A program made the translations under genes and the position numbers. Below, in pieces: positions 20,200 to 62,900 of a stretch of DNA of 64,000 nt; position 1 is the stretch's first letter; every line of letters starts with the position of its first letter. Origin of the DNA: Mustelus asterias (lineage: Eukaryota); NCBI RefSeq assembly GCF_964213995.1, contig NC_135823.1, positions 68,076,001-68,140,000 of the forward strand. Direction: 5' to 3'. The notes below the pieces were generated by a model, which saw nothing but the letters and a program-made list of their open reading frames with translations, was not told where the DNA came from and did no database searches.

Positions 20200-20955
20200 T
20201 GCCTGGAAGAAGCACCATCAATCCCATTTCTGGTTTGTGACAAGTGATGGAGAAGCATTGGGAATGCAACATGAAGAACTATATTCAATCGAGCTGGAGA
20301 GGGCTTATGACCAATTGTCTAGGGAGGAAGTCTGGAGATGTGCTAGAATTCATGGAGCCCCTGAGAAGTACACAGGGTGTGCAGGAGGACTGTCAGACAA
20401 GAGTAAGAAACAATGTGGAGGAGAGTGAAAGTGTCGAAGCCTAAGTTGGATTGGCACTGAGCCCCTTCCTCTTCTTGATTGCCATGGAAGTTCTAACTGA
20501 GCAAGTGAGACAGGAAATAGCATGATCAATAATGTTTGCAGAAGGCATTTAGGTGGAGAGGCTGAAAACATGACCAGGTATCTGGAGAAAATTGCTGGAA
20601 GGCAAGGGTTTGAAGATCAGTAAACTAAAAGCCCAATTTTTGGACTGTCAGTTTGAGCCTAGGGAAGATAATTAGAGTGGAAAGATTATTGCCAGGATTT
20701 TCTGGCCGCACTCGCCCTAAAACTGGAAAATCCTGCCCGAGGTCAATAGACCTTTGCTATGAAGTCAATGGACGCTCCGATTCCCATGGTGGGTGGGATG
20801 GGAAAATTCCTCCCATGGTAAAGACTTGGAGAAAGTGAGTAGTTTCAAGTAACTGGGATCAGTAGCGGCAAGAAGATGGAAGAATAGAAATGGAAATTAA
20901 GCAACTCATTAGCTCTGGTTGGATAATTGGAAGAAATAACATGGAGTATAGTGTT
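20200..20955 (+). mobile_element. Degenerate RTE-clade LINE RT fragment, interrupted by a MITE at 20690-20815
   Basis: GFMPGRST, ELERAYDQLSREEVWRCARIHGAPEKY and GKDLEKVSSFK*LGS resemble RTE RT segments. Confidence 0.6.
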
Positions 20956-20959
20956 TTGA

Positions 20960-21761
20960 GACCAAAAAAGAAAATGCTGGAAAATCCAGCAGCATCTATA
21001 AGGAGAGAAAAGAGCTAATGTTTCAAGTCCAGATGTCCCTTTGTCAAAGATAAAAGGCACGGAAAGTGGGAGATATTTATACAGTAGGATGAGGGAATGA
21101 AAGATGAACCAGAGCCAAGGGGAAAGGTTAAGAGGTGCTAATGGCCGTCCATCGAGAGAATAGAAGATGTGAATGGCTAAACAGCAGAGAAGCTGAAATC
21201 AGAAGGTAAACTGTGACAGATGAAGATGTGGGGGGAGGGGGGGAGATGGGTAGGAGAGAGGTAAAATAGAAAAAGGGGGGAAAGGGAAGCAAAGCGGGAA
21301 AAATGGGAGGAAAGAGCGGGGGAGGAAATAAAACTAAAGAAAGACAATAAAGAAATAAAAGGTAGAGAACAGTTAAAAATTAAATAAAATGAAAACAAAG
21401 GGGTCGAGGTGGGGTAGAGCTAATCATCTGAAGTTATTGAATTCGATGTTGAGACCGGAAAGCTGTAACGTGCCTAGCTGGAAGATGAGATGCTGTTCCT
21501 CCAGTTTGCGTTGAGCTTCACTGGAACATTGCATTTTGGTAAGCACTCATTACAGGTTAAGCAGCGTTTTACTTGCACCTCTTTCAATTTGGTCTATTGC
21601 ATTCATTGCTCTATGTCGGAGAGACCAAACGTAGACTGGGTGATCGCTTTGTTGAGCACTTTCAGTCTGTACGCAATCAGGATTGACCTTCCCGTTGATT
21701 GCCATTTTAACACACGATCCTGCTCCCATGCCCACATGTCTGTCGTTGGCCTGCTGCAATG
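20960..21761 (-). mobile_element. Penelope-like element: pLTR plus GIY-YIG C-terminus (- strand, 20960-21533) with an inverted GIY-YIG segment (+ strand, 21541-21761)
   Basis: - strand QCSSEAQRKLEEQHLIFQLGTLQLSGLNIEFNNFR*; + strand QVKQRFTCTSFNLVYCIHCS/YVGETKRRLGDRFVEH.../DLPVDCHFN...GLLQ. Confidence 0.85.
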
Positions 21762-25414: not shown

Positions 25415-28400
25415 TCACAGAATTGTTACGGTGCAGGAGGAGGTCACTTGGCCTATCGTGTCTGCATTGGCTCTGCAAATGAGCATCATGACTTAGTGTC
25501 ATTCCTCTGCCCTTTCCCCGCACCCCAGCACATTGTTTCTTTTCCAATAATCACCTAATGCCTTCTTGAATGCCTCAATTAAACCTGCCTCCACCACAAT
25601 TCCAAGCAGAGCATTCCAGTCCTGAACCACTCGCTGTGTGGAAAAGTTATTTCTCTCATCACATTTGCTTCTTTTGCAAATCACTTAAATTGATGCCCTC
25701 TCATTCTTGATTCTTTTATGAGTGGGAGCAGTTTCTCCCTATCTACTCTTTCCAGCTCCCTCATGATTTTGAACATCCCTATGAAATCTCTGCGTTCTTC
25801 TCTCCAAGGAAAATTGACTCAACCTCTATTGTCATAACTGAAGCTTTGCATCCCTGGAACCATTCTTGTAAACCTCTTCTGTACTCTCTCCAATGTGTTC
25901 ACATCCTTCCTATAGTGTGGTGCCCAGAACTGTACGCAATACCCCAACTGTGGTCTAACTGGTGTTGTATAAGTTCAGCATAATCTCCTTGCTCGTGTAC
26001 TCTATTCATTAATAAAGTCCTGAATACTATATACTTCATTAATTGCTGTCTCCATCTGTCCTGCCACCTTCAGTGATCTATGCACATATAGACCTAGGTC
26101 CCTTTGCTCCAGCACTCCCTTAAGAATTTTACCCTTTATTTTATATAGTCTCTCCCTGTTCCTCCTGCCAAAATGAACCACCCCACACTTTTCCACATTC
26201 AACTTCGTTTGCCACCTATCTGCCCACTTCACCAACTTGTCCAACTTGAAACTATGCTCTGCACAACAAGCTGTAGATCATTAATATATGTCAGGAAAAG
26301 CAAGGGTCCCAATACTGATTCCCTGGGGAATACCACTACAGCCCTAAAAATACCCACTGACCATTACTGTCTGATTCTTATTATTCTGTCAAATTTGTAT
26401 CCACATTGCGACTGTAAATCCGTTTGTCTTCCTAATCACTTGCATTACCTGCATACTAACCTTCTGTGATTCATTTACAAGGACAACTAGATCCCTCTGG
26501 ATCCTTTAAATAGCATATTACTTTCCTATTTTTCCTGCCAAAGCGGTCAAGTTAACTTTTTCCCACACTAAACTCCATCGGCCAAATCTTTGCACACTAA
26601 TTCACTCGCTCAATCAATCATTTATCCCTTTGTAGAATCTTTATCTGCTCTTGACAACTTTCTTTCCTTTCTATCTTGTTGTCATCAGCAATTCAGCTGC
26701 CATACATTCAGTCCCTTTATCCAAGTCATTGAGTCATAGAGGTTGACAGCATGGAAACAGGCCCTTCGGCCCAACTTGTCCATGCCGCCCTTTCTTTTTT
26801 AAAGTCCCTAAGCTAATCCCAATTGCCCGCATTTGGCCCATATCCCTCTATACCCATCGTACCCATGTAACAATCTAAATGCTTTTTAAAAGACAAAATT
26901 GTACCCGCCTCTACTACTACCTCTGGCAGCTTGTTCCAAACACTCACCAGCCTCTGTGAAAAAATTGCCCCTCTGGACACTTTTGTATCTCTCCCCTCTC
27001 ACCTTAAACCTATGTCCTCTAGTTTTAGACTCCCCTACCTTTGGGAAAAGATATTGACTATCTAGCTGATCTGTGCCCCTCATTATTTTATAGACCTCTA
27101 TAAGATCACCCCTCAGCCCCCTACGCTCCAGAGAAAAAAGTCCCAGTCTATCCAGCCTCTCCTTATAACTCAATCCATCAAGTCCCGGTAGCATCCTAGT
27201 AAATCTTTTCTGCAGTCTTTTTAGTTTAATAATATCCTTTCCATAATAGGGTGAGCAGAATTACACACAGTATTCCAAGTGTGGCCTTGCCAATGTCTTG
27301 TACAACTTCAACAAGACATTCCAACTCCTGTATTCAATGTTCTGACCGCTGAAACCAAGCATGCTGAATGCCTTCTTCACCACTCTGTCTACCTGTGACT
27401 TCACTTTCAAGGAGCTATGAATACGTACCCCTAGATCTCTTTGTTCTGTAACTCTCCCCAACGCCCTACCATTAACTGAGTAAGTCCTGCCCTGGTTCAA
27501 TCTACCAAAATGCATCACCTCGCATTTGTCTAAAACTCCATCTGCCATTCGTCAGCCCACTGGCCCAATTGATCAAGATCCCGTTGCAAATGGAGATAAC
27601 TTTCTTCGTTGTCCACTATGCCACCAATCTTAGTGTCATCTGCAAACTTACTAACCATGCCTCCTATATTTTCATCCAAATCATTAATATAAATGACAAA
27701 TAACAGTGGACCCAGACTGACCCCTGAGGCACACCGCTGGTCACAGGCCTCCAGTTTGAAAAACAACCCTCCACAACCACCCTCTGGCTTCTGTCAAGAA
27801 GCCAATTTTGTATCCATTTAGATACCTCACCCTGGATCCCGTGAGATTTAACCTTATGCAACAGCCTACCATGCGGTACTTTGTCAAAGGCCTTGCTAAA
27901 GTCCATGTAGACAACATCAACTGCACTGCCCTCATCTATCTTCTTGGTTACCCCTTCAAAAAACTCAATCAAATTTGTGAGACGTGATTTTCCTCTCACA
28001 AATCCATGCTGACTGTCCCTAATCAGTCCTTGCGTCTCTAAATGCCTGTAGATCCTGTCTCTCAAAATACCTTCCAACAATTTACCCAGCACAGATCGAT
28101 ATAGATTGTAAATAGTTGAGGTCCCAAAACTAATCCCTGTGGCACTCCACCCCTGTTATAGCTTGCCACACTGAAAAGGACTCTTATCCCTGCTCTGTTA
28201 CCCCCTATACCATGAGCTTTTTTTCTCTGTAGCAACCTTTGATGTGGCACTTTATCAAATGCTTTTCGGAAATCCAAATACACCACACCTATAGGTTCCC
28301 CTTTATTTGTGTTGCTTGTTACATCCTCAAAGAACTCTAATCTTTTAATGAAATACCATTTTTTGTCTTCCTGATCCCAGTATGGTTTTCTCAGGATTCT

Positions 28401-29285: not shown

Positions 29286-30406
29286 ATTATAATTTTTCAC
29301 CATAACTTTAGAACAAAAACAGTGGAAAATTATTTGAAAAACAAAATTAGTGTCAGATGGATAGACAAACATTAAAGATTTCTAACTGGCGAAATATTCA
29401 TCTGGAGCCCTGGAAAAGAAAAATGTTCGTGTTAAGATAGACACTTTTGAAAAAAAAATTAAATTACGTAATGGAAATCAGCTAAACTAATAACTGTTTT
29501 TGGTTAAAATGCAAAAGTAACTTAATCTGTAATAATACATAGACCAAGAATGATACAGGTCAATTTTGGCAGCAAACATAAATACATTTTTAACACCATA
29601 CTCTCGGTTCAATTTTTACTTTCTGCAATGTATAAACGTTCTGTAGTGGAAGAATATTTTATGGAAGAGTTTAATAAATTTAAAGTAATTGTTCATGATT
29701 AGATATGTCTACTATTTCTGAATGCAAAATTCCAGCTGATGTGCATTTTAAAACTACTTGCTCAGAATGTGGTATTACATTTTAAAGCTATGAAAATATT
29801 TTGTATGCTGTATAATTGTATAAGTGCTACAGCAGTTGTATACCATGTGCAGATTAAATAGACAATATTAAACAAAATATTCTGTAAAGTAAGTACAGTG
29901 GCACAGCTTATTAGTTCTCCAGCATATGGACAGAGTGGCCTAACCAATGTGCCCTCGCAGCTGTGTAAAAATACAGAATGTACTGCACAGGCAACAATCA
30001 GGCTGTGCACAGCATTGGTCCCAAACCTGGTTCCCTGCTGCTCTTCCACTTATGAGTTCAGGATGAGGTTGCATCATCTGAAGACATGACACAGTAGATG
30101 TTACACATGGAGACATAAATTTTGACTTTGTCTGATATGGTAAAATGGGTGTTATAACTGTCAGCAGCCATTACACACCTCTCCTGATTTTAACAGCCAT
30201 TGAAATCAGTTGCAAATTAAGAGGGATGACCCATTTGCCAACTTCCTTTTTACTCCACTGCAGAATGTCAAGATCTACTGAGACTGATGGAAGAAGTCTT
30301 ACAGCAGAATTAGTCAAAATGCTCTCTCATTTACAGGTTCACAATATATAATTAAATCAGGGGGAAAATGAGCTCATATAACTCCTAGTTTTTCTGTATT
30401 TTTCAG

Positions 30407-30829
30407 GTACACCTTTGCATGATGAGCAAACATTTGACCTCAAGCATGTTCTGAAGGGCATTGACCCTAGCATTCCATTGGTGTTCATCAGTGGCAACCA
30501 TGATATAGGAAACGCCCCCACCCCAGACACTATTTCCGAATATTGCAAGAGCTGGGGAGATGATTACTTCAGCTTCTGGGTTGGGGGAGTGTTGTTCCTT
30601 GTGCTGAACTCTCAGTTTTTTCAAGATGCTTCCAATTGCTCTGAACTAAAAGAAGCCCATGACCTGTGGTTGGATCACCAACTTGCTGCTGCTGAACAGT
30701 CGAAAAGCAAACATGTGATTGTGTTCCAGCACATCCCTCTATTTCTCCAGAGTCCTGACGAGGAGAATAACTATTTTAACCTGGAAAAGTCAAAACGGCT
30801 GGATCTTTTGCAGAAATTTGAAAAAGCAG
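30407..30829 (+). CDS. CPPED1: Internal coding exon of calcineurin-like phosphoesterase domain-containing protein 1 (equivalent to human exon 3)
   Basis: Acceptor tttttctgtatttttcAG at 30405-30406, donor GTattg at 30830; 423 nt, phase 1-1, open frame (G)[38 protein letters not shown]...[21 protein letters not shown]...[11 protein letters not shown]...KFEKA(G). Metallophosphoesterase GNHD motif; peptide closely matches CPPED1 as I recall it. No other exon recognised in the window. Confidence 0.95.
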
Positions 30830-31012
30830 GTATTGTTTTTATTACGTTCATTCACTAACAAGCTAGAAAAGACTTCAGATCTGAAAACTCTAAATGAAAA
30901 TGTTTCCTCTTTGGTTGTGCAAAATTTACACTGTTCCTGAGGTGCGCTCCGTCATTTATAGGTGGGGAATGCTCATCTTTCCTGTGCAGGCTCTTTGCTT
31001 GGCTCAGCTGCA

Positions 31013-33167: not shown

Positions 33168-34876
33168 TGTTCTTCACCCTTCCCGCTTGCCAACCTTCCC
33201 ACTTGCCACTTCTTTCACCTTTCTTTCCTCTCGCTGACCATTTCCTTTTCCCAAACCCTAGCTGTGAGCGAGGGAGTTAAAGGGGCAAACGGAAGAGAAA
33301 CATTGAATGGGAGGGAAGGAGCAAGTGTGGGGGGGGCAGCAAGTGGGAGAGAGGTGGCTAGCAGGAGGGCTGGAGAGTGGGAGAGAAACAGTGAAAGGGA
33401 GGGAGACAGCAAGTGGGAGATAGGTGGTGAGATAGCCATAGGAAAGACAAGTGCAAGCAGAGTAATAAATATCACTGGTTTAGTAAATAATTGCTGTGAC
33501 TTCCTAATCTTTGGAAAATGTTGGAGTAAACATACTTCAGAATGTGCTGCAATAACATGAGTTATTTATAAGCAGTACCAATAGATCATACAATTGGATA
33601 GTAATTTATACAGCTTTAACGAGCAGCACAATACTTTGCTAATTATCTCAGCAATACTTGACGTGGGTCAGAGTTCATAAAATCTCCAGTCCCATCTTCA
33701 GAAGACTTAGGACGACTATCTTCTACTTCCTTTCCATTTTGAAGATGGATCAAAAACAAAGGTAACTAGATGTATCTCACATTTGCCTTATGTTCATTTA
33801 AAACACAAGTAGCGCTTGTTGGCTAGAGATGTACCTCATACCTTTTGAAGTTAACATTGGAGATATTGTAAACAAAAAGATAGCAACTCAGTAATTTGCT
33901 TGCTTCAGAGGTCCACTAAATGTCCAAAATGTTAATAGGAAATATTCAAGACCTCAAAATGAATTGCAGCCTGCCAAATGGCTCCTGGATCCTAACACAT
34001 TTGTCACTTAAAATTCCTTTGAACTCAATCAACCGGCATAAATAAAGCAAGCAAGTAATGAAAGCCACAATTAAAATATTAACATTAAAAGGCACTCACA
34101 GTTGGTGAAGTAAGTAAGCCTTTCTTCCCATCTTTGGTGCTTGTTTTTATCTGTTTATTGCACCGTGGGAATTTCTGGAGTGCTTTTTAACTTTCTTTTG
34201 CCATTAAAATGTTACTATGTTAATGCCTACCTTCCTCATAACTTACAGGTTTTCTTCTTAAAAGGTTTCTAGTGCTGATGTTTATTTGCATTTAGTAATA
34301 TTTAGAAGTGGACAAGCCATAGTTACAGTCAAGAAATAGTTACAAAAATAAAACTATTTGTAATCCTGTTATGAAACTCCCTATTCACCACAATGTTTTA
34401 CTGCCTGAATGTTTGTACACGTTGTGGTTAAGTATTTGCCATTTTTCAGTTCTGTGTTAATATTTATTTAATTACAAATTAAAATATCAATTGTTTTGTT
34501 CTTTAAACCTTCTGCACTGTAGCACAGTAGCCACCATTTCAAAAATTCTTTATAATATAACACACACTTCGAAGGTCAAAGCATAGAAAATGTAGAGTTT
34601 CATAATGATGGAGAAAGAGTCCACTTAGAGAAATTGCTGGTGCCACGTTGAGAAGAGATGGAACTAAAAACTTCAAATTAACAATGATTGGCGGGAAATA
34701 AATTCTGAGGGATAAATGAGGAACTTTGCAAACTCAATCCAATCTGATAAGTTTATGTTTAACTTTGAAATTTAAAGGAATAAGTCCAGAGGGAGGATGG
34801 AAGTGCATCAAATTTATTTTCATCTTCCTCCCTTCCCAACTAGAAACTTGTGTTCACCCTAGTTACAGTTATTCCT

Positions 34877-35565: not shown

Positions 35566-36355
35566 GATTTGATTTATTATTGTCACATGTATTAGTACAC
35601 TGAAAAGTATTGTTTCTTGCACGCTATACAGACAAAGCATACTGTTCATAGAGAAGGAAACAAGAGAGTGCAGAATGTAGTGTTACAGTCATAGCTAGGG
35701 TGTAGAGAAAGATCAACTTAATACAAGGTAGGTCCATTCAAAAGTCTGACAGCAGCAGGGAAGAAGCTGTTCTTGAGTCGGTTGGTACGTGACCTCGGTC
35801 TTTTGCATCTTTTTCTCGACGGAAGAAGGTGGAAGAGAGAATGTCCGGGATGCGTGGTGTCCTTAATTATGCTGGCTGCTTTTGCGAGGCAGTGGGAAGT
35901 GTAGACAGAGTCAATGGGTGGGAGGCTGGTTTGTGTGATGGATTGGGCTACATTCACGACCTTTTGTAGTCTTGGGCAGAGGAGCAGCCATACCAAGATA
36001 CAACCAGAAAGAATGCTTTCCACAGTGCATCTGTAAAAGTTGGTGAGAGTCATAGCTAACATGCCAAATTTCCTTAGTCTTCTGAGAAAGTAGAGGCGTT
36101 GGTGGACTTTCTTAACTATAGTGTCGGCATGGGGGGACCAGGACAGTTAATCTGGACACCTAAAAACCTGAAGCTTTCAACTAATTCTACTTCATCCCCA
36201 TTGATGCAGGCGGGCATGTTCTCCACTAGCTTCCTGAAGTTGATGACAATCGCTTTCATTTTGTTGACATTGAGGAAGAGATTAATGTCGCCGCACCATC
36301 TCACCAGATTCTCTATCTCATTCCTGTACTCTGTCTCGTCATTGTTTGAGATCCG
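35566..36355 (-). mobile_element. Rex-Babar-like LINE, 5'-truncated
   Basis: NVNKMKAIVINFRK, FYRCTVESILSGCI, HPGHSLFHLLPSRKR, TNRLKNSFFPAAVRLLN; (AATCA)n tail. Confidence 0.88.
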
Positions 36356-36374
36356 GTGTTACGGACAGTGATTG

Positions 36375-36695
36375 GTTACACTATGGTTAGCATTGCTGCC
36401 TCACCGTGCCAGGGACCTGGGTTCAATTCCGGCCTCGGGTCACTATCTGTGTGGAGTTTGCACATTCTCCCTGTTCTGAGTGGGTTTCCTCCGGGTGTTC
36501 CCGTTTCCTCCCGCATTCCAAAGATGTGCAGTTTAGGTTGATTAGCCACGCTAAATTGCTCCTTATTGTCAGAAAGACTAGCTGGGTAAATACATGGGGT
36601 TATGGGGATAGGGCCTGGGTGGGATTGTTGTCGGTGCAGGTTCGATGGGTCAAATGGCCTCCTTCTGTACCGTTGTTATTCAACGATTATATGAA
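36375..36695 (+). mobile_element. HE1-type V-SINE
   Basis: tRNA head, V core and CR1-like tail. Confidence 0.85.
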
Positions 36696-38070
36696 AGAGA
36701 ACTGAAACCCTTTGTTTCCTTCCCTTTCTGTAATCAGTGTGTATTTTTAAAAGGAAGAGGTGTGTGTTTCTTAACCCCTGAGTGTCTGAACAATTTGAAA
36801 GGCCAGCAGCAAGCTTTCTATGAATTTATTAAGAGGAATAGTTATTTAGGTGTCCATCCTGAATGTGTAATGCTATGTCTCATTACTCACCATTCACATA
36901 CACATGCGCACGCACTCGAAAAAAACTTGTCAAATAAAATAGTGCATTTTTGTAAGTTATCAACAAAAGATAGTTCGTAATTTACGTGATTGGCTAGTTT
37001 TGACAAAAACATGCGTAGCACGCCTGGTGAAGAAGGCGTTTTCACTCCTATAGAGTAATCTAGGCGGATTCAGTAGTTGGAGTCGTATATCAGAATTGTT
37101 GTAGGTTTTTGAGAAGAGATGGATTTTGAGCAGGTTATTAAGTCAGTTACTTGTAGTTTCATCGGAATATAGAAAATATGAGTTGGAGTAAGCCATTGGG
37201 CCCATTGAGCCCGCCATGCCTTTCAACTAGATCATGGCTGATCTTTTACCTCAGGACCATTTTCCCATCATATCCCCATGTGCCTTGATATATTAAATAT
37301 CTAGAAATGGATTGATCTGTATCTTGAACCTACTCAATGACTGAGCCTCTGGAGACCTCTGGAAGTTCCATGCCTTTATGTGTGGTCCAACCTGCGCTCT
37401 ACATTCAGACATTGGAGGTCAGAGCTGCTCCGATAGGAAAGACTTAAAAGGTCTGGGATGAGCTAAAGATGAATATGACAGATTTTTTTCTTCACTTCTT
37501 AAGCACTTACTATTTTAAAGACATTGATTTCCCCCTCTGGTCCATCCATTACCTTTTTTTAAGCTAACCATTGAATCCAGCTAGGTCTTAGTTGGCAAGA
37601 TTTCCATAAGCCTTACAAGTACATAATGGGTGAAATTCCCATGGTAGTCCAGGAGCTACATCAGACACACTCCCTAGGAGAATCTGGAAGGATCATTTGC
37701 TCCTCTGAATCATGTTTTGATCCAAATTTCAGCCTAATCTGCCTGACTTTCAGTCTGGCACCCCATTGGAATTTTAGGCCCAAAGCAGCTCATCACATAA
37801 GAGCTTGGACAGTCAAATTCCACTCAACAGCAATTTTATTCTAACAATGTTGCATTGTAGAAGGAATACCTGCTTCATCCAAACACACAAAAAAATGAAA
37901 ATTTCCCTTATTAAATACAAATTTTGCATCGTGATGGAATGGCATTTTATATTGGGTCAAAATCCTGGAACTCCCTCCCTCGCAGCACTGTGGATGTATC
38001 TACATCATATGGACAGTGGTGGTTCAATAAGACAGCTCACCACCACCAACTTTTCAAGGGCAATTAGGGG

Positions 38071-38658
38071 GCCTAACTCCACTAGTCCTAGATCTTGTAC
38101 TGCGTCAGTCTCCAACTCTTGCTGATGAACAAATCCTTTCACCTGATGTCCAGCAAGTTTCAGGCACCCTGAAGATCATTTTTTCCCGACCTGATGGTTT
38201 CCAGCAGCAGTTGATGTTTGTCCAGGCATGCGCCCCTGGGAGCACAGGATCCTGTGTTAGAGCTGCTGAGAATGACACTTAACAAAAAGCACTGCATTTC
38301 TTTCTTGGAAAATGTAAATTTTAAAAATCTTTTAAAAAAATACTTTTCCAATTCAATCAAATCAAGTCCAATTCAGAGTCTCGACAAGTTGAGACATTTC
38401 CGATCCAAGCTGACAAGACAGGGTATGCGACCCTTTACCCTGTCTTGGGCCTGATCTACATGAGCCAAGCTGATTGGAGTAGGCAGACGTCTCCACCCCC
38501 AAGACTTGATCTCATTTGCATCTTAGCCAAAAGGCCGAGATGCCACTTTTTGAAAATTGCTTCATATGAAAATGAAGCTTAAATGCAACCCAATGGCCAC
38601 GACCAAGTGCAGCATTGGCAGACTACACTTGATCTTAGCCAAAAGGCCGAGAAGCGAT
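38071..38658 (-). mobile_element. Non-autonomous Keno/Tx1-like element headed by U2 snRNA nt 1-37
   Basis: U2 5' end, then a structured UTR-like segment, then a decayed Tx1-type ORF2 C-terminus (KEMQCFL.., TQDPVL, TNINCCW, NLL..., WRL). Confidence 0.65.
38622..38658 (-). pseudogene. RNU2: U2 snRNA 5' fragment (nt 1-37)
   Basis: Reverse complement ATCGCTTCTCGGCCTTTTGGCTAAGATCAAGTGTAGT equals vertebrate U2 nt 1-37; the rest of U2 is absent. Confidence 0.92.
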
Positions 38659-41959: not shown

Positions 41960-43871
41960 AGTTGGCAAGATAGTTATGCCACTGGCTAGTGATTCAGAGG
42001 CCCAGGTCTGGGGACATAGGTTCAAATCCTACCATGGCAGTTGGTGGAATTTAAATTCAATTAATAAATCCAAAATAGCTAGTTAAGTAATGGTGACCAG
42101 GGAAACTATCATCAATTGTTGTAAAAACCCATCTGTTTCCTAATATCTTTCAGGGGATGAAATCTACCGCCTTTATTTGACCTGGCCTTGGGAGGCCTTT
42201 GGGAGGCAAGGGATGAGATTGCAGAGCCTTTGGCTTTGATCTTTGGGTCCTCACTGTCCACGGGGATGGTGCCAGAGGTCTGGAGAATGGCGAATGTTGT
42301 TCCTCTGTTTAAGAAAGGGAATAGAAATGACCCTGGTAATTATAGACCGGTTAGTCTTACTTCGGTGGTTGGTAAATTGATGGAAAAGGTCCTTAGGGAT
42401 GGGATTTACGACCATTTAGAAAGATGCGGATTAATCCGGGATAGTCAGCACGGATTCGTAAAGGGCAAGTCGTGCCTCACAAATTTGATTGAATTTTTTG
42501 AGGAGGTAACTAAGTGTGTTGATGAAGGTAGGGCAGTTGATGTCATATACATGGATTTTAGCAAGGCGTTTGACAAGGTCCCCCATGGTCGGCTTATGAT
42601 GAAGGTGAGGAGGTGTGGGATTGAGGGAAAGTTGGCCGATTGGATAGGTAACTGGCTGTCTGATCGAAGACAGAGGGTGGTGGTGGATGGAAAATTTTCG
42701 GATTGGAGGCAGGTTGCTAGCGGAGTGCCACAGGGATCGGTGCTTGGTCCTCTGCTCTTTGTGATTTTTATTAATGAGTTAAAGGAGGGGGCTGAAGGGT
42801 GGATCAGTAAATTTGCTGATGACACCAAGATTGGTGGAGTAGTGGATGAGGTGGAGGGCTGTTGTAGGCTGCAAAGAGACATAGATAGGATGCAAAGCTG
42901 GGCTGAAAAATGGCAAATGGAGTTTAACCCTGATAAATGTGAGGTGATTCATTTTGGTAGGACTAATTTAAATGTGGATTACAGGGTCAAAGGTAGGGTT
43001 CTGAAGACTGTGGAGGAACAGAGAGATCTTGGGGTCCATATCCACAGATCTCTAAAGGTTGCCACTCAAGTGGATAGAGCTGTGAAGAAGGCCTATAGTA
43101 TGTTAGCTTTTATTAACAGGGGGTTGGAGTTTAAGAGCCGTGGGGTTATGCTGCAACTGTACAGGACCTTGGTGAGACCACATTTGGAATATTGTGTGCA
43201 GTTCTGGTCACCTCACTATAAGAAGGATGTGGAAGCGCTGGAAAGAGTGCAAAGGAGATTTACCAGGATGCTGCCTGGTTTGGAGGGTAGGTCTTATGAG
43301 GAAAGGTTGAGGGAGCTAGGGCTGTTCTCTCTGGAGCGGAGGAGGCTGAGGGGAGACTTAATAGAGGTTTATAAAATGATGAAGGGGATAGATAGAGTGA
43401 ACGTTCAAAGACTATTTCCTCGGGTGGATGGAGCTATTACAAGGGGGCATAACTATAGGGTTCGTGGTGGGAGATATAGGAAGGATATCAGAGGTAGGTT
43501 CTTTACGCAGAGAGTGGTTGGGGTGTGGAATGGACTGCCTGCAGTGATAGTGGAGTCAGACACTTTAGGAACATTTAAGCGGTTATTGGATAGGCACATG
43601 GAGCACACCAGTATGATAGGGAGTGGGATAGCTTGATCTTGGTTTCAGATAAAGCTCGGCACAACATTGTGGGCCGAAGGGCGTGTTCTGTGCTGTACTG
43701 TTCTATGTTCTATGGCCTATCTGCGACTCTAGATCCACAACAATATGGTTGACTCTTAATTGCTCTCTCTGAAATGGTGTAGCAAGCCACTCAGTTTAAG
43801 GGCATTAGGGATGGGCAACAAATGCTGACCTTGCCAGTGATGCCCATATCCCATGAATGAATAAAAAAAAA
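41960..43871 (+). mobile_element. tRNA-derived SINE with L2-like tail, split by a CR1 (halves 41960-42188 and 43713-43871)
   Basis: ggttcaaatcc B box, ggtggaatttaaattcaa, tail aagggcattagggatgggcaacaaatgctg...atgaatgaataaaaaaaa. Confidence 0.75.
42189..43712 (+). mobile_element. Young 5'-truncated CR1 with an uninterrupted 482-codon RT/C-terminal frame
   Basis: No stops or frameshifts 42188-43636; (TTCTATG)n tail; TSD TGGCCT at 42183-42188 and 43713-43718. Confidence 0.95.
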
Positions 43872-46334
43872 GACTTCCAGTTTACTGAGGATAACTACAG
43901 ATAATATAGCCAATACTGGCATTTTCTTTTACATGTAACATTTTTTTCTAGTACTTTAAGCTATCCTGCTTGCATTTGGGTCAATGATTGCCCTCCATAA
44001 TACCCTTTTGATTGCAAATGTAAATGCTTTAGCATGGTGCCTGGTTACCCTCTGGGTGCTCCTGCATCAATTTATGAAGCTGAATTACAAACATATTCTT
44101 TCGCCCAAAATACTGGTATGACGATACTGTGCCTTTAAGAAATGTATTGTTATGTCATGTTCCTTGTGAAGGGAATGTTTTAAACTTCAGCTCTGATTGC
44201 AGTGCCAATTTGTCTGCTCCAGGCAGCCCACTGCTGAGAAGCATAATTGATCCTAGATATTGGGTGTTTGTTTTAATCTGACTAATGTAGTTTTGATTAT
44301 TTTTGTGTGTTGTCCCCTGGGGTTTCAGCGTAAAGATTAATTAGGTTGATTGACAAGAGTGCATCATGTGCTGATAAAAGGAGCTAGGCTTACAGAGGGG
44401 AAAAGGCAGGCAATTTCTGTTTGGATTTTGTAAGAAGCAGCAACTCTCTCTCTCTCTTTGGTGATTGAAGTGTGGGACTTGCCAGAAAATAGGTATCTCT
44501 CGCCAGAGGTGTTAAAAAGCTTGAATATTGGCAACCCTTGTTAGCCTATCTGCTCAAAAATTTCTATCCATTACCTAAGCTGTGTTCGTGAGTGTTACAC
44601 ATAGACAATAAGGTGAGTGAAGACCTTCTTCAAAGAATAGACAGTTGGGATTCACTGACAAACAAGAGCGCTATCAGATACGATACATTAAATCTGAAAT
44701 GTGTTTCCACTTCAAGAAACACTGGCCTTGTGATTCAGTTTTCCCAAAAAACTGAATATTGGCCAGTTCCTTACTCCACACAAGCAAGGAATTCTCAAGA
44801 AGCCTGCTCTTTGGGCTGCAGAGCTGTTATTCACTTGAGCTCTCTTCTAAAGTTAACAGCTACTTTAGTTGATTTTCCAAATCTGTGCAGACTGTATCAA
44901 AAACAAATCAGCTGAAGTAATCAGTGGAGATTTCTCTGTTTCAGCAGTTTGCCTGGATCAGTAGTTGCGAACCATGCCAGATGGAATCACTGCTGTACGT
45001 ACTTGTAACATGCCTCAATTCTACCAGGATCCGCATAATAGATTACCAGAGCACTCCACCAGTACTTGGACTTCTGCATCAATGCTTAGTTTTCAAATTG
45101 CTTTTAAATTACAAGAACACTTTACTTAAATCCCAAGGTTCATGTCCTTTTCATTGTTGCTTCAAGTTGTTAACAGTTTCTTTGCTGAATGTGCAACAGT
45201 TTAAATACAGCAACCAGAGCTCAGAAGCAGCTAGAAGACAAAGTGATAGAAGGGAAAAGGGGAAAGCTTACAGTATGTTCAGCAACTTTCACAATCTCAG
45301 GGCAGCTGTTCTCTCAGGCACAGGGAAGAGGAAAACCCAGAGCAAAAGATTATTACTTGGCTATATAAAGTGCAGAATTTTAAGCAACAGGCCACGCTAA
45401 TTGTGTAATTAAAGAAATTAGATGGGCCAATTCCTGCCAAGGTGAGAAATGGCCAAGCATTTTGCTGATGTTTATAAGCAAACAGAAAAAAAGATGTGCT
45501 GCTTCCTTGATTCAACACGATACAGTATCTTCATAATAGCACGTAGGCTCTATTTTATCATGAACAGGCTAAATTGCCTTCACTTAAGAGTTAATTGTCT
45601 TATTCTGTTGAAGATATGAAATGTATCCCAGCTGTAATTGAATTTCAAGTCATGAGCTATGTAAAGTGTGTGGGAGGGCAATTGGATCAAGCTTGAGAAA
45701 TTTGTGAAGATTTTATCAATGTCTGTCATTTGAAATTAGTGAGCATGACGAAGGTTGTCTTTCTGACTTTGCTGTTTTCTACTTTGCTTTACCTGATGAG
45801 CGAGGCTCCAATTTTTAATACCACTGGATCCAGTAATGAGAAATTAATCAAAACAGATAAAAGAAATAAACATTGAAGAACGTCTAGACAATAGTGATCA
45901 TAACATAAGATTTGAAATAAAAATTGAGCAAGATATAAGTACGACAGAAAAAACTAATAGATTGGAAAAAAACAAATTTTGATGGGATGGGAATGGAACT
46001 AGGGAAGGTAAATTGGAAAACGAAAGTGACGAGCAACATAAATGATCAATGGGAAGTTTTTAGAACTGTGATCAGTAGAGTTTAGGAGAAATATATTCTG
46101 CTAAAATACAAGAAGAAACCTAGCTAGTAATGAAATATCATGGAGATATATAGAGTTGAGGGTGAAATTGAAACTAAAGAATATGGCATATACTAACTAT
46201 ATAGTGGATAAATTATAATAGTATTGGATATGCATCTGCAGAGAAGACATTTCCAGGGTTATGAGATAGGGACAGGCAAGTGGGATGAGTAACTTTTGTA
46301 TAGAGCCGACGCAAACAATGAACCGAGTGGCCTT

Positions 46335-47150
46335 TTAAAAAATGCATTCACGGGATGTGAACATCGCTGGTTCGGCCAGCATTTATTGCCCATCTCTAAT
46401 TGCCCTTGAGAAGGTGGTGTTAAGCTGTCGTCTTGAACTGCTGCAGTCCACCTGGTGTGAGTACAAGCACAGTGCTGAAGGGGAATGACTTGGAAGGGAA
46501 CTTTCAGGTAGTGTTGTTCCCATTGTCTGCTGCCCTTGTCTTTCTAGATAGTAGTGGTCATGGGTTTGGAAAGTGCTGTCCAAGGAACCTTGGTGAGTTC
46601 CTGCAGTGCATCTTGTAAATGATACACACTGCTGCTATGATGCATTGGTGGTGGAGAGAGTTTGTGGATGGGGTGCCAATCAAGTGGACTGCTTTGTCCT
46701 GGATGATTGGGGAAGATCCCAATATTCTTGAGTGTGTTGGAGCTGCACTCATCTAGTGAAGTGGAAAGTGTTCCATCGCACTCCTGTCCTGTGCCTTGTA
46801 GATGGTGGACAACCTTTGGTTAGTCAGGAGGTGAGTTACTCTCCGTAGAATTCCTAGCCTCTGACCTGCTCTTGTAGCCAGTATTTAAATGGCTAATCCA
46901 GTTCAGTTTCTGGTTAATGGTAAGCCCCATGTTGTTGTTAGTGGGGAATTCAGCAATGGTAATACCATTGAAGGTCAAGGGGGTGATGATGAGATTCTCT
47001 CTTGTTGGAGAAGGTAATTGCCTGGTACTTGGGTGGCGCAAACGTTACTTGTCACTTGCCAGTCCAAACCTGGTTATTGTCCAGGTCTTGCTGCATTTGG
47101 ACACAGACTGCTTCAGTATCTGAGGAGTTGCGAATTGGGCAATCATCAGC
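46335..47150 (-). mobile_element. L2/CR1-type LINE 3' fragment, likely tail donor of the SINEs at 21871, 41960 and 57130
   Basis: IQDKAVHLIG, SLHHQCIIAAVCIIYKMHC; 3' end aagggcaattagagatgggcaataaatgctggcc shared with those SINEs. Confidence 0.75.
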
Positions 47151-48220: not shown

Positions 48221-49023
48221 TTTGGGATATGTAATTATGATAGATAATTTACTCTATTGTTACTCTATCTGTACCATTCTAGTTCCCACTACTAACAGGA
48301 GGAAACAGATAAACTATAAAGCCTAGGTTTATGAGCACAGTGGACAAATGAGGTAAAAATAAAAGGTGCTGGAAATCCTCAGCAGGTCACGCAGCATCTG
48401 TGGAGAGAGAAACAGGTTATCGACCTGAAATGTTAACTTTAATCTGAATTGGGAAAGTTTAGAAATGGAATGGGTCTTGAGCAAGCAGTGGGTGAGACAA
48501 GGGCGAAAGGAAGGTCTGTCAGCTGAGGAACAGCACCTCATTTTTCAATTAGGCACTTTACAGCTTCTAGATTCATCATTAAGCTCAACAATGTCAGACC
48601 ATAATCTCTGCTCCATTTTGTTTCCTTTTCTTTGTTTTCAGTTTTTCTCTTACTTTTGCTTTCCCACTTCAGAACAGCTGCCCTTGGCACATTTTTTCCT
48701 ACTCTCTCCGTAGATGCTGTCAGACCCAATGGACGGGATTTTACGGCTTCGCTCATCCCGATACTGTAAAATCCCATCCAAGGTCATTTCCATGGTCCGC
48801 CCCTCTCCTCCAATTCCAATGGTGGGTGGGGCAGTAAAATTCTGGCTCTCAGTTTTTCCAGCATTTTGTTCTTGTTTCTTGCCCCATCACCATTCCCGTT
48901 GACCCTGTGAAACGGACTCATATGTTGTTTAATCTCTCCTGTGTTGCACCTTATCACAGATCATCCTTTTGTCCTTGTCTCACCTACTCGCCCCTTGCTC
49001 AAAACCCATTTCTAACTTTTCCC

Positions 49024-49373: not shown

Positions 49374-50260
49374 ACCTGCTGAGTATTTCCAACATTTTCT
49401 GCTTTTATTTCAGATTTCCAGCATCTTTAGTATTCGGTTTTTTGGTTTGAAATGTGAGAATCTGATTCTGAGATAGGGCCCTGTGATTCATTGAGCATAG
49501 GACTCTGAGTTACTGAGCATACTCACTGATAGATAATTGCATTCAAATACAATGGCCCTAAATCATTCACAAAACTTCTCTGGTCACGTTTTTTATCTGC
49601 TCAATGTACACAAGCTTTGCAACTTCTGAACTAGTTCAGAGAGAAAGCTGTATGTCAAAGAAACAAATAAAGTGCGAGTAGAGAAACCTGACAACTAATA
49701 TAATCAGTTCTGACACTGATTAGGAAGTGTCTCCTTTTTTTGGAATACCCTGCATATGAAGAAAACACATGCTGTGATTTGCATTTTGACTATTTTGTAG
49801 TCATGCGAGCGAGCAATATAACCTATTGCTTTCCATTTGTAGAATCCTCAAGTTAATATTAGTGTAAAATTCTACCAAATGCATCTCAGATTGTGAGGTT
49901 AAATTGAAACATAGTTTGGTTCCCAAAACTGCTGGATTCTGGCTCATGGCACTGAATAGCAAATAGCATTGCCACATATAGCCGCAAGTTAAATCTACTC
50001 AGATAGCATATGCTTAACTTCAAATAAATACCATTAAATTTCCTGTTTGTCTTTTAAGTTATCAAAGGATTTAGATTTATTAAATGCCACTGTGATGTAG
50101 TGATCGTTAGTTGGAGCAATTGTCGTAAATTTGGATCAGTCTGCATTAGAGGGAGACTTGCTAATACAGAGGGTTGTGCTGATATTAAAATTATAGGGCA
50201 GGATTTTCCGCACAACCCACTGCAGGTTTTGCAGGGGTGGAGGCGGCCGGTGATAGGATG

Positions 50261-50600: not shown

Positions 50601-52841
50601 CAGATCATCTGGTCTTGCTGCTGTCAACGGGGTTTCCCATTGAATTCACCCTTCACTGCCGGGAAACCTGCGACAGGGAGTGAGCCATCAGCTGGACCAG
50701 AACATCCCGCCGCCATGAACGGCCGGAAAGTTCCAGCCACAATTGTATTGCCTTGTGTTTGAAGGGCTTAATGTCAAGTGTGGAAACCATATTTTGCTTG
50801 ATTACAGTGATCAATTTTACCAATACCACATTTGCTGGTGTGATAGCTCAGCAAAAACTCATAAAATAATCAGGGTTGATTGTTTCCATGGAAACATAGC
50901 TTTAAATTTTCAGATGTGGTCCCCATAGTCTTGTTCTTCCTGCACTTGCCTTGTCAAAATGGCATCAAGGGGGAATTATTATGGTGGTACAAATGCAGTG
51001 ACACCAATTTATATTTGCTCTGAATTGGTGGCTGGGGGGCAATAAACTGCCACAGTCATGATTAGAGATACTTTATCTATAGGAGAGAATGCCTTATTTA
51101 TAGAAAGCTCAGAAAGCCCAGACTTTGGAAGGCAATTATCTGGATCAGCAACACGATTTGTTTTGCCTCCGTTCAACGTACAATCTCAGAAAATTGCACA
51201 TTGAAAAGCATGCTACATTTTTGTATGGGAAAAGGTGAAACAAAAAATCATCTCCCTACAAATCATCTCCTGTCTTTTAGTACATGACCAGCTAGTCACG
51301 AATATTTTATGTCAGTCACTTAATGCATTGTCAAATGGAATAGTACTGTTTATGATGAACAAACAAAGAACAAAGAAAATTACAGCACACGAACAGGCCC
51401 TTCGGCCCTCCAAGCCTGCACCGACCATGCTGCCCGACTTAACTAAGACCCCGTACCCTTCCGGGGACCATATCTCTCTATTCCCATCTCATTCATGTAC
51501 TTGTCAAGACGCCCCTTAAAAGTCACTATTGTATCCGCTTCCACTACCTCCCCCGGCAACGAGTTCCAGGCACCCACCACTCTGTAAAAAATCTGCCTCG
51601 TACATCTCTTTTAAACCTTGCCCCTCGCACCTTAAATCTATGCCCCCTAGTAATTGACTCTTCCACCCTGGGAAAAAGCTTCTGACTATCCACTCTGTCC
51701 ATGCCTCTCATAATCTTGTAGACTTCTATCAGATCGCCCCTCAACCTCCATCGCTTCAGTGAGAGCAAACCTCTCATAGCTAATGCCCTCCATACCAGGC
51801 AACATTCTGATAAATCTTTTCTGTACCCTCTCCAAAGCCACCACATCCTTCTGGTAGTGTGGCGACCAGAATTGAACACTATATTCCAAGTGCGGCCTAA
51901 CTAAGGTTCTATAAAGCTGCAACATGACTTGCTAATTTTTTTAACTCAATACCCCAGCCAATGAAGGCAAGCATGCCATATGCCTTCTTGACTACCTTCT
52001 CCACCTGCATTGCCACTTTCAGTGACCTGTGTACCTATACACCCAGATCCCTTTGCCTATCAATACTCTTAAGGGTTCTGCCATTTACTGTATATTTCCT
52101 ATCTGTATTAGACTTTCCAAAATGCATTACCTCACATTTGTCCGGATTAAACTCCATCTGCCATCTCTCCGCCCAAGTCTCCAACTGATCTATATCCTGC
52201 TGTATCCTCTGATGGTCCTCATCGCTATCCGCAAACTTACTAATCAATCCAGTTACATTTTCCTCCAAATCATTTATATATATTACAAACAGCAAAGTTC
52301 CCAGCACTGATCCCTGAGGAACACCACTTGTCACAGCCCTCCATTCAGAAACGCACCCTTCCATTGCTACCCTCTGTCTTCTTTGACCGAGCCAGTTTTG
52401 TATCCACCTTGCCAGCTCACCTCTGATCCCATGCAACTTCACCTTCTGCACCAGTCTGCCATGAGGGACCTTGTCAAAGGCCTTACTGAAGTCCATGTAG
52501 ACAACATCCACTGCCCTACCCTCATCAATCATCTTTGTCACTTCCTCGAAAAACTCGATCAAGTTCGTGAGACACGACCTCCCCTTCACAAAACCATGTT
52601 GCCTCTCACTAATACGTCCACTTATTTCCAAGTGGGAATAAATCCTGTCTCGAAGAATCCTCTCCAATAATTTCCCTCCCACTGATGTAAGGCTCACCGG
52701 CCTGTAATTACCTGGATTATTCTTGCTACCTTTCTTAAACAAGGGAACAACATTGGCTATTCTCCAATCCTCTGGGACCTCCCCTGTAAGAAGTCTAACA
52801 ACACCAGGTTAAAGTCCAACAGGTTTATTTGGTAGCAAAAG

Positions 52842-59929: not shown

Positions 59930-62900
59930 TGAAGGGCACAAATATCCTGGCTGGGAGCTTTGCTAATGCAATTCGGGGGGGTTTAAACTAGTGTGGCAGG
60001 GGGGTGGGGATCAAACTATTAGGTCTATAAGTGTGGTGGCTGGGGACGAGCTTGGGGCTGGGACAAGGCTGGCAAAGAAGAAGAGCACTCTGGGGGAGGA
60101 CGACCTCACTGAGCCTGGGGGTCTGGAGTGCTTATACTTCAATGCAAGGAGCGTAGCAGGTAAAACAGATGAACTTGGGGCCTTAATGCGCACGAGGAAT
60201 TTGGATGTGGTTGCGGTGACGGAGACTTGGTTGAAAGAGGGACAGGACTGGCAGCTGAATATTCCAGGGTACAAGTGTTTTAGGCGAGACAGAGGAGGGG
60301 CCAAAAGAGGTGGGGGAGTAGCGGTATTGGTTGGAGAGCATATTACAGCGGTGCAGAGGGAGGACAATTCGGAGGAGTCGTGTAGCGAGTCACTCTGGGT
60401 GGAGCTTAGAAACAGGAAAGGCGCAGTCACTATGTTGGGGGTGTACTACAGGCCCCCCAACAGCCCAAGGGAAGTGGAAGAATGGATATGTCAGGAGATA
60501 CTGGATAGGTGCAGGAAATATAGGGTTGTTGTAGTGGGAGACTTCAATTTCCCTGGTATAGACTGGAAATCGCTGAGGGCAGGGACTCTGGATGGTGAGG
60601 CATTTGTAAAATGTGTACAGGAGGGTTCGTTGGAACAATATGTGGACAGCCCAACTAGAGAGGGGGCTATACTGGACCTGGTGCTGGGGAATGAACCCGG
60701 TCAGGTCTTCAAAGTTTTGGTCGGGGAACATGTGGCAAATAGTGACCACAATTCTGTTAGCTTTAGGATAGTGATGGAAAAGGATGAGTGGTGTCCCAAG
60801 GGTAAGGTGTTGGATTGGGGGAAGGCTAACTTTATTGGGATCAGGCAGAAATTGGCAGCTCTTGATTGGGAGAGGCTGTTTGAGGGTAAATCCACATCTG
60901 GTATGTGGCAGTCTTTTAAGGAACGGTTGTTAGGGCTACAGGACAAGCATGTGCCTGTAAAAAAGAAGGATAGGAAGGGTAGGATTAGAGAACCGTGGAT
61001 AACCAGGGAAATTGAGGGACTGGTCAAAAGGAAAAGAGAGGCGTATGTTAGGTCCAAGCAGCTAAAAACGGAGGGAGCTCTGGAGGAGTATAATGAAAGT
61101 AGGAAAATACTCAAACGGGGAATTAGAAGAGCAAAAAGGGGTCACGAAATGTTCTTGGCAGACAGGATTAAGGAGAATCCCAAGGCATTTTATTCATACG
61201 TTAGGAACAAAAGGGTTGTAAGGGAAAAAATCGGACCTCTCAGGGACAAAAGTGGGGACTTATGCTTGGAGCCCAAAGAGGTAGGGGAGATCCTAAATGA
61301 ATACTTTGCGTCGGTATTCACTAAGGAGAGGGATGTGTTGACTGGGAGTGTCTCGGAGGGGAGTGTTGAACCGTTGGAGAAAATCTCCATTACAAAGGAG
61401 GAAGTGTTAGGTTTGTTAGAGAATATAAAGACTGACAAATCCCCAGGGCCTGATGGAATCTATCCAAGGCTGCTCAGGGAGACGAGAGGTGAAATAGTTG
61501 GGCCTCTGACGCAAATCTTTGTCTCGTCACTGGACACAGGTGAGGTCCCAGAGGATTGGAGGATAGCCAATGTGGTCCCGTTATTTAAGAAGGGTAGGAA
61601 GGATAACCCGGGTAATTATAGGCCGGTGAGCTTGACGTCCGTGGTGGGGAAGTTGTTGGAGAAGATTCTTAAAGATAGGATGTATGCGCATTTAGAAAGG
61701 AATAAACTCATTAACGATAGTCAACATGGTTTTGTGAGAGGGAGGTCATGCCTCACGAACCTGGTGGTGTTTTTTGAAGAAGTGACCAAAATGGTTGACG
61801 AAGGAAGGGCCGTGGATGTTGTCTATATGGACTTTAGTAAAGCGTTTGACAAAGTCCCTCATGGTAGGCTAGTGAAAAAGGTTGGATCCCATGGGATAAA
61901 GGGGGAGGTGGCTAGATGGGTGGAGAATTGGCTTGGTCATAGAAGACAGAGGGTGGTAGTGGAAGGGTCTTTTTCCGGCTGGAGGCCTGTGACTAGTGGT
62001 GTACCGCAGGGCTCTGTATTGGGACCTCTGCTGTTTGTGATTTATATAAATGATCTGGAAGAAGGAGTAACTGGGGTGATCAGTAAGTTTGCGGACGACA
62101 CAAAACTGGCAGGACTTGCAGATAGTGAGGAACATTGTCAGAGGCTACAGAAGGATATAGATAGGCTGGAAATTTGGGCAAGGAAATGGCAGATGGAGTT
62201 CAATCCTGATAAATGCGAAGTGATGCATTTTGGTGGGAATAATGTAGGGAGGAGCTACATGATAAATGGAAGAACCATAAAGGGTGTAGAGACGCAGAGG
62301 GACCTGGGTGTGCAAGTCCACAGATCTTTGAAGGTGACGTCACAGGTGGAGAAGGTGGTGAAGAAGGCATATGGCATGCTTGCCTTTATAGGACGGGGCA
62401 TAGAGTATAAAAGTTGGGGTCTGATGTTGCAGATGTATAGAACGTTGGTTCGGCCGCATTTGGAATACTGCGTCCAGTTCTGGTCGCCACACTACCAGAA
62501 GGACGTGGAGGCTTTGGAGAGAGTACAGAGGAGGTTTACCAGGATGTTGCCTGGTATGGAGGGGCTTGGTTATGAGGAGAGAATGGGGAAACTGGGGTTG
62601 TTCTCCTTGGAAAGACGGAGGATGAGGGGAGACTTAATAGAGGTGTATAAAATTATGAAAGGCATAGATAGGGTGAACGGTGGGAAGCTTTTCCCCGGGT
62701 CGGTGGTGACGTTCACGAGGGGTCATAGGTTCAAGGTGAAGGGGGGGAGGTTTAACACAGATATCAGAAGGACATATTTCACACAGAGGGTCGTGGGGGC
62801 CTGGAATGTGTTGCCGGGCAAGGTGGTGGAGGCGGACACACTGGGAACGTTTAAGACTTATCTAGACAGCTATATGAACGGAGTGGGAATGGAGGGATAC

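What the first reader, a model, noticed from the sequence alone, without database searches (positions are those of the whole stretch)
38071..38658. U2 snRNA-headed bipartite Keno/Tx1-like element outside a U2 gene
Seen (- strand): perfect U2 nt 1-37, broken inside the GUAGUA branch-point recognition motif, then about 320 nt of structured non-coding sequence, then about 220 nt of decayed coding remnant. No downstream U2 half, no poly(A) and no obvious U2 promoter. Known: Keno (Tx1 clade) inserts at about this position of U2 genes, and U1/U2-derived SINEs (SINEU) are described in crocodilians. Inference: a U2-promoter-driven transcript of an internally deleted Keno was retroposed here. The pristine head with a decayed ORF suggests an amplified snRNA-headed SINE-like family in sharks. 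The Tx1 call for the remnant is from memory.
Basis: partly seen in the sequence, partly recalled or inferred. Interest (0 to 1): 0.72.

Follow-up and report, generated by a model that had tools for sequence, protein, structure and literature searches.

The report
U2-headed, self-pairing retroposon copy
This is a short mobile-element copy that begins with an exact piece of the splicing RNA U2 and carries its own complementary strand that folds back over that piece, a design resembling U2-headed retroposons described from crocodilians; its copy number and parent element could not be checked.

Summary
Confirmed on the minus strand: U2 nt 1-37 (38658-38622, 37/37 to vertebrate U2), ending one base before the Keno/Utopia insertion site, then 317 nt that fold better than all 356 control tiles of the window. 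(1) Nine bases after the head lies an antisense copy of U2 nt 11-36 whose changes keep the pairing; it buries five of the six branch-point recognition bases. (2) A second, diverged U2 piece (nt 4-33, plus a repeat of nt 24-32) lies inside the body, as in SINEU-1. (3) The right end abuts a repeat fragment lacking its own terminal ~55 nt, so the 3' end was probably deleted and the missing poly(A) says nothing. The Tx1 identity of 38304-38071 rests on recall; no search confirmed or excluded it. There is one copy in 64 kb and no eukaryotic genome to search, so family status is untested. Best reading: a non-autonomous U2-headed (SINEU-like) retroposon. Main rival: a ~340-nt U2-headed SINE with a 7-9 bp target duplication beside an older LINE fragment. 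No report of such an element in sharks in nine literature searches; Repbase and Dfam unchecked.

The parts
38622..38658 (-). U2 snRNA nt 1-37, unmutated head
   Evidence: Rfam U2 E 1e-7; 37/37 by eye to the U2 row in PMC4640811 S1 Fig
38587..38612 (-). Antisense arm complementary to U2 nt 11-36: 17 Watson-Crick, 6 G.U, 3 mismatches; forms a long hairpin with the head
   Evidence: 23 of head positions 11-37 pair with probability 0.78-1.0; duplex -37.5 kcal/mol on this strand, -17.0 on the other; decay simulation
38559..38578 (-). 7-bp hairpin between arm and second U2 piece
38513..38543 (-). Second, diverged U2 piece (nt 4-33; 23/24 over nt 4-27), with an extended stem and an internal octamer motif at 38521
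   Evidence: D2; 2 matches, 0.14 expected; 0 of 581 null stretches score as high
38504..38512 (-). Repeat of U2 nt 24-32; pairs with 38368-38355
   Evidence: (D16, I7)
38355..38503 (-). Structured body of unknown origin, with a perfect 12-bp helix (38447-38436 with 38425-38414), closed by a strand antisense to U2 nt 24-32
   Evidence: (I6, I7); no Rfam family above chance
38305..38351 (-). A/T-rich terminal hairpin (-10.2 kcal/mol); its 3' arm contains the candidate target-site repeat
   Evidence: I1; 3 of 3000 random 7-mers give an equal fold
38312..38320 (-). 9-nt direct repeat of 38665-38657 (7 flank bases plus U2 nt 1-2): candidate target-site duplication
   Evidence: (D14); chance 78 of 8544 in AT-rich 45-nt zones, 54 of 20000 draws in all zones
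38071..38304 (-). Unstructured 234-nt segment; putative frameshifted C-terminal ORF2 fragment of a Tx1-clade LINE (identity recalled, not tool-confirmed)
   Evidence: z -0.3; searches negative
37960..38069 (+). Neighbouring fragment of a dispersed repeat in opposite orientation (LINE 3' end by recall), lacking the terminal ~55 nt that other copies have; marks a probable deletion breakpoint. Not part of the element

Best explanation
38658-38071 is the 5' part of one copy of a non-autonomous, SINEU-like retroposon: U2 head, structured U2-containing body, then a decayed LINE 3' segment; its true 3' end was removed later by a deletion at ~38070. Shown: exact U2 nt-1 start without promoter-like flank; break at nt 37; antisense arm; second U2 piece; strong fold ending at 38305. 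Inferred: (1) the master is transcribed from a U2 promoter, most simply because it sits in a U2 gene at the Keno site, so the RNA starts with U2 1-37; (2) the arm pairs with that head, opening stem I and hiding the branch-point motif, which would keep a Sm-less U2 fragment out of the spliceosome and stabilise the 5' end; (3) an earlier round of head addition left the inner U2 piece, as in SINEU-1; (4) Tx1-clade RT/endonuclease supplied in trans copied the RNA to this non-U2 site, the LINE-derived 3' part giving recognition. A promoterless copy like this one is probably dead on arrival.
For: Head 37/37 from nt 1. Keno inserts 37 nt into U2 and its 3' flank starts at nt 39 (PMC6136364; PMC4640811). 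Arm with 9 substitutions keeps a -34.0 kcal/mol duplex; random decay does so in 0 of 3000 (50% transitions) and 8 of 3000 (67%) trials. All 6 transitions are of the type that keeps pairing on this strand (P 0.035). G.U pairs in the predicted fold: 17 of 123 on this strand, 6 of 110 on the other. Arm diverged while the head did not, so both cannot be a foldback made at this locus. Recurrent U2 addition, partial duplication and U2-headed Tx1 LINEs are described in crocodilians (PMC4494074). The terminal hairpin runs through the candidate TSD up to the first base of the remnant; splitting the unit there needs a 3-in-3000 coincidence, keeping it whole a 78-in-8544 one. Neighbouring repeat truncated at the junction.
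Against: No second copy, so family status and covariation are untested. Tx1 identity unconfirmed: phmmer over 1.84 billion representatives gave 1 hit, a spurious tandem-repeat protein; word searches found nothing. A 9-nt junction repeat sits exactly at the body/remnant boundary. The count-only wobble test is modest (478 and 1884 of 20000), and 2 of 4248 other window tiles pair with the head as strongly. The body folds well on both strands (z -6.1 and -8.1 for 38579-38305), so only the head/arm part is strand-specific. Kojima 2018 lists only RTE, Ingi, Vingi and R2 as makers of ORF-less bipartite LINEs. All statistics were chosen after seeing the sequence.
Confidence: 0.5

Rival explanations
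1. Two insertions. A ~340-nt U2-headed SINE (38658-38321) with an A/T-rich tail and a 7-9 bp target duplication landed at the 5' edge of an older, unrelated or partner LINE fragment, perhaps through shared target preference.
For: 9-nt repeat at the 5' junction and at 38320-38312; chance 0.3-0.9% in a 45-nt zone. Intact head and helices beside an unstructured, apparently decayed segment; CpG o/e 0.52 against 0.23, on only 8 and 3 sites. Tandem SINEU/Tx1 insertions sandwiching a TSD are described.
Against: Needs the terminal hairpin across the TSD to be chance (3 of 3000); no poly(A) before the repeat; 2 of the 9 bases are U2 nt 1-2; over the whole 721-nt downstream stretch such a repeat occurs in 4% of controls.
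Confidence: 0.25
2. A full-length autonomous U2-headed Tx1/Keno LINE inserted here and lost its middle by a deletion private to this locus; the structured part is simply its 5' UTR and there is no non-autonomous family.
For: U2-headed Tx1 LINEs exist (Tx1-11_Crp); the locus has suffered at least one deletion; one copy only.
Against: Head and helices are nearly unmutated while the putative ORF reads through several stops and frameshifts (recalled reading; frames); equal residence time should decay both alike.
Confidence: 0.13
3. A one-off product: a tailless U2 retropseudogene or a U2 template-switch chimera, with local foldback and duplication explaining the arm and the second piece.
For: 3'-truncated U2 retrocopies and snRNA-LINE chimeras are known.
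Against: Arm differs at 9 of 26 sites and the inner piece at 3 of 31 while the head has none; no target repeat next to nt 37; 317 nt of fold beyond all 356 control tiles.
Confidence: 0.07

Closest known systems
SINEU-1 (C, E, F, H) and SINEU-3 of crocodilians (Kojima 2015, PMC4494074)
   Same: U2-derived 5' head, nested U2 pieces and partial duplication, internal oligo-T, no pol III boxes, probable Tx1 mobilisation
   Different: Non-crocodilian host (cartilaginous fish by recall); antisense arm to the head not mentioned in the text read; a LINE-like 3' segment may be attached, whereas no LINE partner tail was found for SINEU-1; poly(A) not seen here.
Tx1-Mar LINEs with U1/U2 heads (Tx1-11_Crp and others; PMC4494074)
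   Same: U2 head on an element with putative Tx1 sequence, outside U2 genes
   Different: Those are Tx1 LINE families preferring Mariner-N4; here no EN or RT region, and no target repeat recognised
Keno (Tx1 clade, U2-targeting; Kojima and Fujiwara 2004, known only through PMC6136364, PMC4640811, PMC4494074)
   Same: 5' break at U2 nt 37/38
   Different: Not inside a U2 gene, no U2 3' flank, no promoter-like flank, no ORF1/EN/RT; sequence similarity untested
Utopia (RLE-type, U2-targeting; PMC4640811)
   Same: Same U2 site; off-target copies occur in crocodilians
   Different: No RLE or RT sequence here; nothing links the body to it
Bipartite non-autonomous LINEs (RTE, Ingi, Vingi, R2; PMC5786205)
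   Same: Possible 5' part joined to a 3' part of a LINE
   Different: Tx1 is not among the clades listed in 2018; snRNA head

Membership tests
SINEU | Head derived from U1 or U2 snRNA | tested here: met
SINEU | Recurrent U1/U2 addition or partial duplication (SINEU-1) | tested here: met
   second U2 piece and nt 24-32 repeat
SINEU | No internal pol III promoter; oligo-T inside | tested here: met
   no A/B box by recalled patterns, 8 runs of 4 or more T
SINEU | 3' poly(A) tail | tested here: inconclusive
   none seen, but the right junction looks deleted; only an A/T-rich run at 38345-38321
SINEU | Short unit, under about 500 bp | tested here: inconclusive
   338 nt if the TSD is real, 588 nt or more if the remnant belongs
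SINEU | Many copies of one shared structure | not testable with these tools
   1 copy in 64 kb; no eukaryotic genome collection; 0 matches in GTDB as expected
SINEU | Sequence kinship to SINEU-1/2/3 and shared target with Tx1-Mar | not testable with these tools
   supplement not readable; Repbase not available
Keno | 5' junction at U2 nt 37/38 | tested here: met
Keno | Located in a U2 gene, U2 resuming at nt 39 on the 3' side | tested here: not met
   no 3' U2 in the window; no PSE-like flank; 3' junction probably lost
Keno | ORF2 with APE endonuclease and RT | tested here: not met
   no Pfam match in the frames of the element that were scanned
Keno | Sequence or phylogenetic placement with Keno in the Tx1 clade | tested here: inconclusive
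   no reference retrieved; fragment too short and broken for the negatives to count
Functional U2 snRNA gene | Full-length U2 with Sm site, PSE and 3' box | tested here: not met
Tailless U2 retropseudogene | TSD directly after the truncated U2 | tested here: not met
   only junction repeat of 7 nt or more lies ~300 nt further on
HDV-like ribozyme 5' end (R2/RTE type) | Nested double pseudoknot with P1, P3, P1.1 | tested here: not met
   own descriptor 0 hits (not validated on a positive control); Rfam hit 14.5 bits against 44, E about 1, driven by the U2 piece

The most novel reading that the evidence does not exclude
An snRNA-headed retroposon family in cartilaginous fish, independent of crocodilian SINEU and built on a Tx1-clade 3' end, whose RNA has evolved antisense arms against U2. 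The arm ends where the head ends, so in trans it could capture cellular U2 snRNA (nt 11-36) and hand it to the reverse transcriptase for a template switch at nt 37, renewing a pristine head at each insertion; in cis it would silence the U2 fragment. This would give a mechanism for the recurrent snRNA head addition that Kojima 2015 described without a specific docking mechanism.
Probability: 0.2. Interest if true: 0.8.

Novelty: new variant of a known kind. Interest (0 to 1): 0.58.

Why it matters
Kojima 2015 found SINEU only in crocodilians and left open how such elements are transcribed. A second lineage whose head ends at the Keno target site would tie snRNA-headed SINEs to U2-targeting LINEs and make the borrowed-U2-promoter model testable. 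An antisense arm co-adapted to the head would show selection on the element's RNA to manage a spliceosomal fragment. A Tx1-derived ORF-less bipartite element would add a clade to the four listed in 2018. If it is already a Repbase or Dfam entry, only the structural observation remains new.

Tried and rejected
An alignment of two reading frames came out of register and was not used. Antisense 85-aa frame of the body: no candidate. GTDB scan with a 27-mer of the body: 0. Ribozyme, A/B box, Sm site, 3' box, poly(A) signal: none. tRNA: 0. A degenerate third U2-like piece at 38720-38698: 365 of 585 null stretches score as high against the whole element, 20 of 584 against the inner piece alone; treated as chance. 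Continuation of the remnant downstream: none (112 of 143 nulls as high). Host exons or a Tx1 reference in the window: 120 of 130 non-repeat frames scanned (the other 10), 1 endonuclease-like hit, no host gene. No structure prediction was run. The viral and metagenome contig collections were not searched.

Full report
Setting. The window is repeat-rich animal DNA: 32% has self-matches, with many LINE endonuclease and RT fragments and no host exon recognised by Pfam.

Observation. On the minus strand 38658-38622 is U2 nt 1-37 (Rfam E 1e-7; 37/37 by eye to the U2 row of PMC4640811 S1 Fig). It ends inside GUAGUA. Keno inserts 37 nt into U2 and Keno and Utopia share a 3' flank that starts at nt 39, so the break lies at that site. 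The bases at 38622-38619 also equal U2 39-42, so the junction can be read as a 2-nt deletion. Upstream there is no PSE-like match near -60, only an octamer at -95, where Kojima 2015 places the distal element near -220 (patterns recalled). An exact nt-1 start in a non-promoter flank indicates that the head was copied from RNA.

Structure. 38658-38305 folds at -134.9 kcal/mol, z -6.8 against dinucleotide shuffles, while the upstream flank (+0.9) and the remnant (-0.3) do not; 0 of 356 same-size tiles of the window reach it after GC correction. Short tiles elsewhere can score as low in a noisier scan (12 of 534).

New anatomy. (1) 38612-38587 is complementary to U2 nt 11-36 with 17 Watson-Crick pairs, 6 G.U pairs and 3 mismatches. 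Head alone folds at -10.4, head plus arm at -36.6; the duplex is -37.5 on this strand and -17.0 on the other. A perfect arm given 9 random substitutions stays this stable in 0 of 3000 or 8 of 3000 trials; the count-only test is weaker (478 or 1884 of 20000), and 2 of 4248 other tiles pair with the head as well. As the head has no change and the arm has nine, the arm is older than this insertion. (2) 38543-38513 is a second U2 piece (nt 4-33, 28 of 31 columns; 0 of 581 nulls), followed by a repeat of nt 24-32, which in turn pairs with 38368-38355. Both U2 pieces thus have antisense partners. (3) An A/T-rich hairpin, 38351-38305, closes the folded region right before the remnant.

Right end. 38069-37960 is a fragment of a dispersed repeat in the opposite orientation; four other copies in the window show about 55 further terminal bases that this one lacks (two aligned by BLAST, two compared by eye). 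The junction is therefore probably a deletion, and the absence of poly(A) or of the 3' half of U2 carries no information.

Remnant. No tool confirmed this: searches gave no real hit. The piece is about 75 codons in two frames with stops, so these negatives are weak. The Tx1 label stays a lead. I also recall having seen the body as a repeat in shark assemblies; that too comes from no call.

One unit or two. A 9-nt repeat joins the 5' junction (38665-38657) to 38320-38312. As a TSD it would make a 338-nt SINE beside an older fragment. Its chance level is 78 of 8544 in AT-rich 45-nt zones, but accepting it makes the terminal hairpin a 3-in-3000 accident. One of the two is chance; the numbers and the same-strand adjacency favour one unit, by a modest margin, and both tests are post hoc.

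Mechanism. Most likely (0.5): a non-autonomous retroposon whose master is read from a U2 promoter, giving an RNA that starts with U2 1-37; the arm folds over the head and masks the branch-point motif; Tx1-clade proteins copy it in trans to non-U2 sites. Only the anatomy is shown; transcription, mobilisation and family status are inferred. The bolder variant (0.2) has the arm dock free U2 snRNA for a template switch at nt 37. Rivals: two insertions (0.25), a privately deleted autonomous LINE (0.13), a one-off pseudogene or chimera (0.07).

Known systems. It works like SINEU-1 and the U2-headed Tx1-Mar LINEs of crocodilians. SINEU membership is met for head, nested U2 pieces and lack of pol III boxes, and open for copy number, tail and sequence kinship. 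It is not filed as Keno: it is not in a U2 gene and has no EN or RT. Nine paper searches listed no U2-headed element from cartilaginous fish; only the listed top rows were seen, the library lacks most subscription papers, and Repbase and Dfam were not available, so it may be catalogued.

Papers seen. PMC4494074: parts 1-4 of 5 of the text, supplement unavailable (its SINEU alignments bear on kinship and on whether an antisense arm exists there). PMC4640811: section 6, 3 passages, S1 Fig part 1 of 8 plus searched rows, S4 Fig part 1 of 2. PMC5786205: 12 of 15 passages. PMC4758252: 3 passages. PMC6136364: 4 passages. PMC9323068: 4 passages. PMC3747384: 5 passages. PMC8455134: 3 passages (Tx1 present in whale shark and Callorhinchus). 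PMC5322556: 12 of 17 passages. PMC13019295: 12 of 23 passages. PMC5499810: term search, 0 hits. PMC11979771: listing only, supplement too large to read (may hold repeat classes). Kojima and Fujiwara 2004: not seen, cited second-hand.

Verdict. A real, non-trivial feature; new variant of a known kind; interest 0.58, limited by the single copy and the unconfirmed parent.

Noticed in passing
window 59967-62915 (+): Uninterrupted 982-codon LINE ORF2 frame with endonuclease and RT domains; related fragments at about 4650-6270, 26835-28095, 42200-43580 and 51360-52790.
   Followed up: partly
window 49385-49540 and 53060-52905: 156-bp inverted repeat, 99.4% identical, about 3.4 kb apart; could be terminal repeats or a recent inversion or duplication.
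   Followed up: no
window 48721-48840, 34081-34200, 20881-21000, 46561-46680, 44641-44760: 120-nt tiles with very low folding z in a noisy scan.
   Followed up: no
window 35721-36146 (-): Frame matching Pfam ALKBH8_N (E 3e-11) inside a dispersed repeat; probably a LINE C-terminal piece (recalled), not a host exon.
   Followed up: no
window 30382-30855 (+): Frame matching Pfam Metallophos just above cut-off (E 7e-5); origin unexplained.
   Followed up: no
window 38521 and 38753 (-): Two perfect octamer motifs 232 nt apart, one inside the second U2 piece and one 95 nt upstream of the head; 12 octamers in the whole window.
   Followed up: partly
window 38672-38667 and 38310-38305 (-): If the 9-nt repeat is a TSD, the empty site would be a 6-bp inverted repeat around it; the same hexamer opens the terminal hairpin at 38351. 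Unexplained under either model.
   Followed up: partly
window 36373-36696 and about 10 other places: Abundant ~330-nt SINE-like repeat (depth 10); V-SINE/HE1 type by recall.
   Followed up: no
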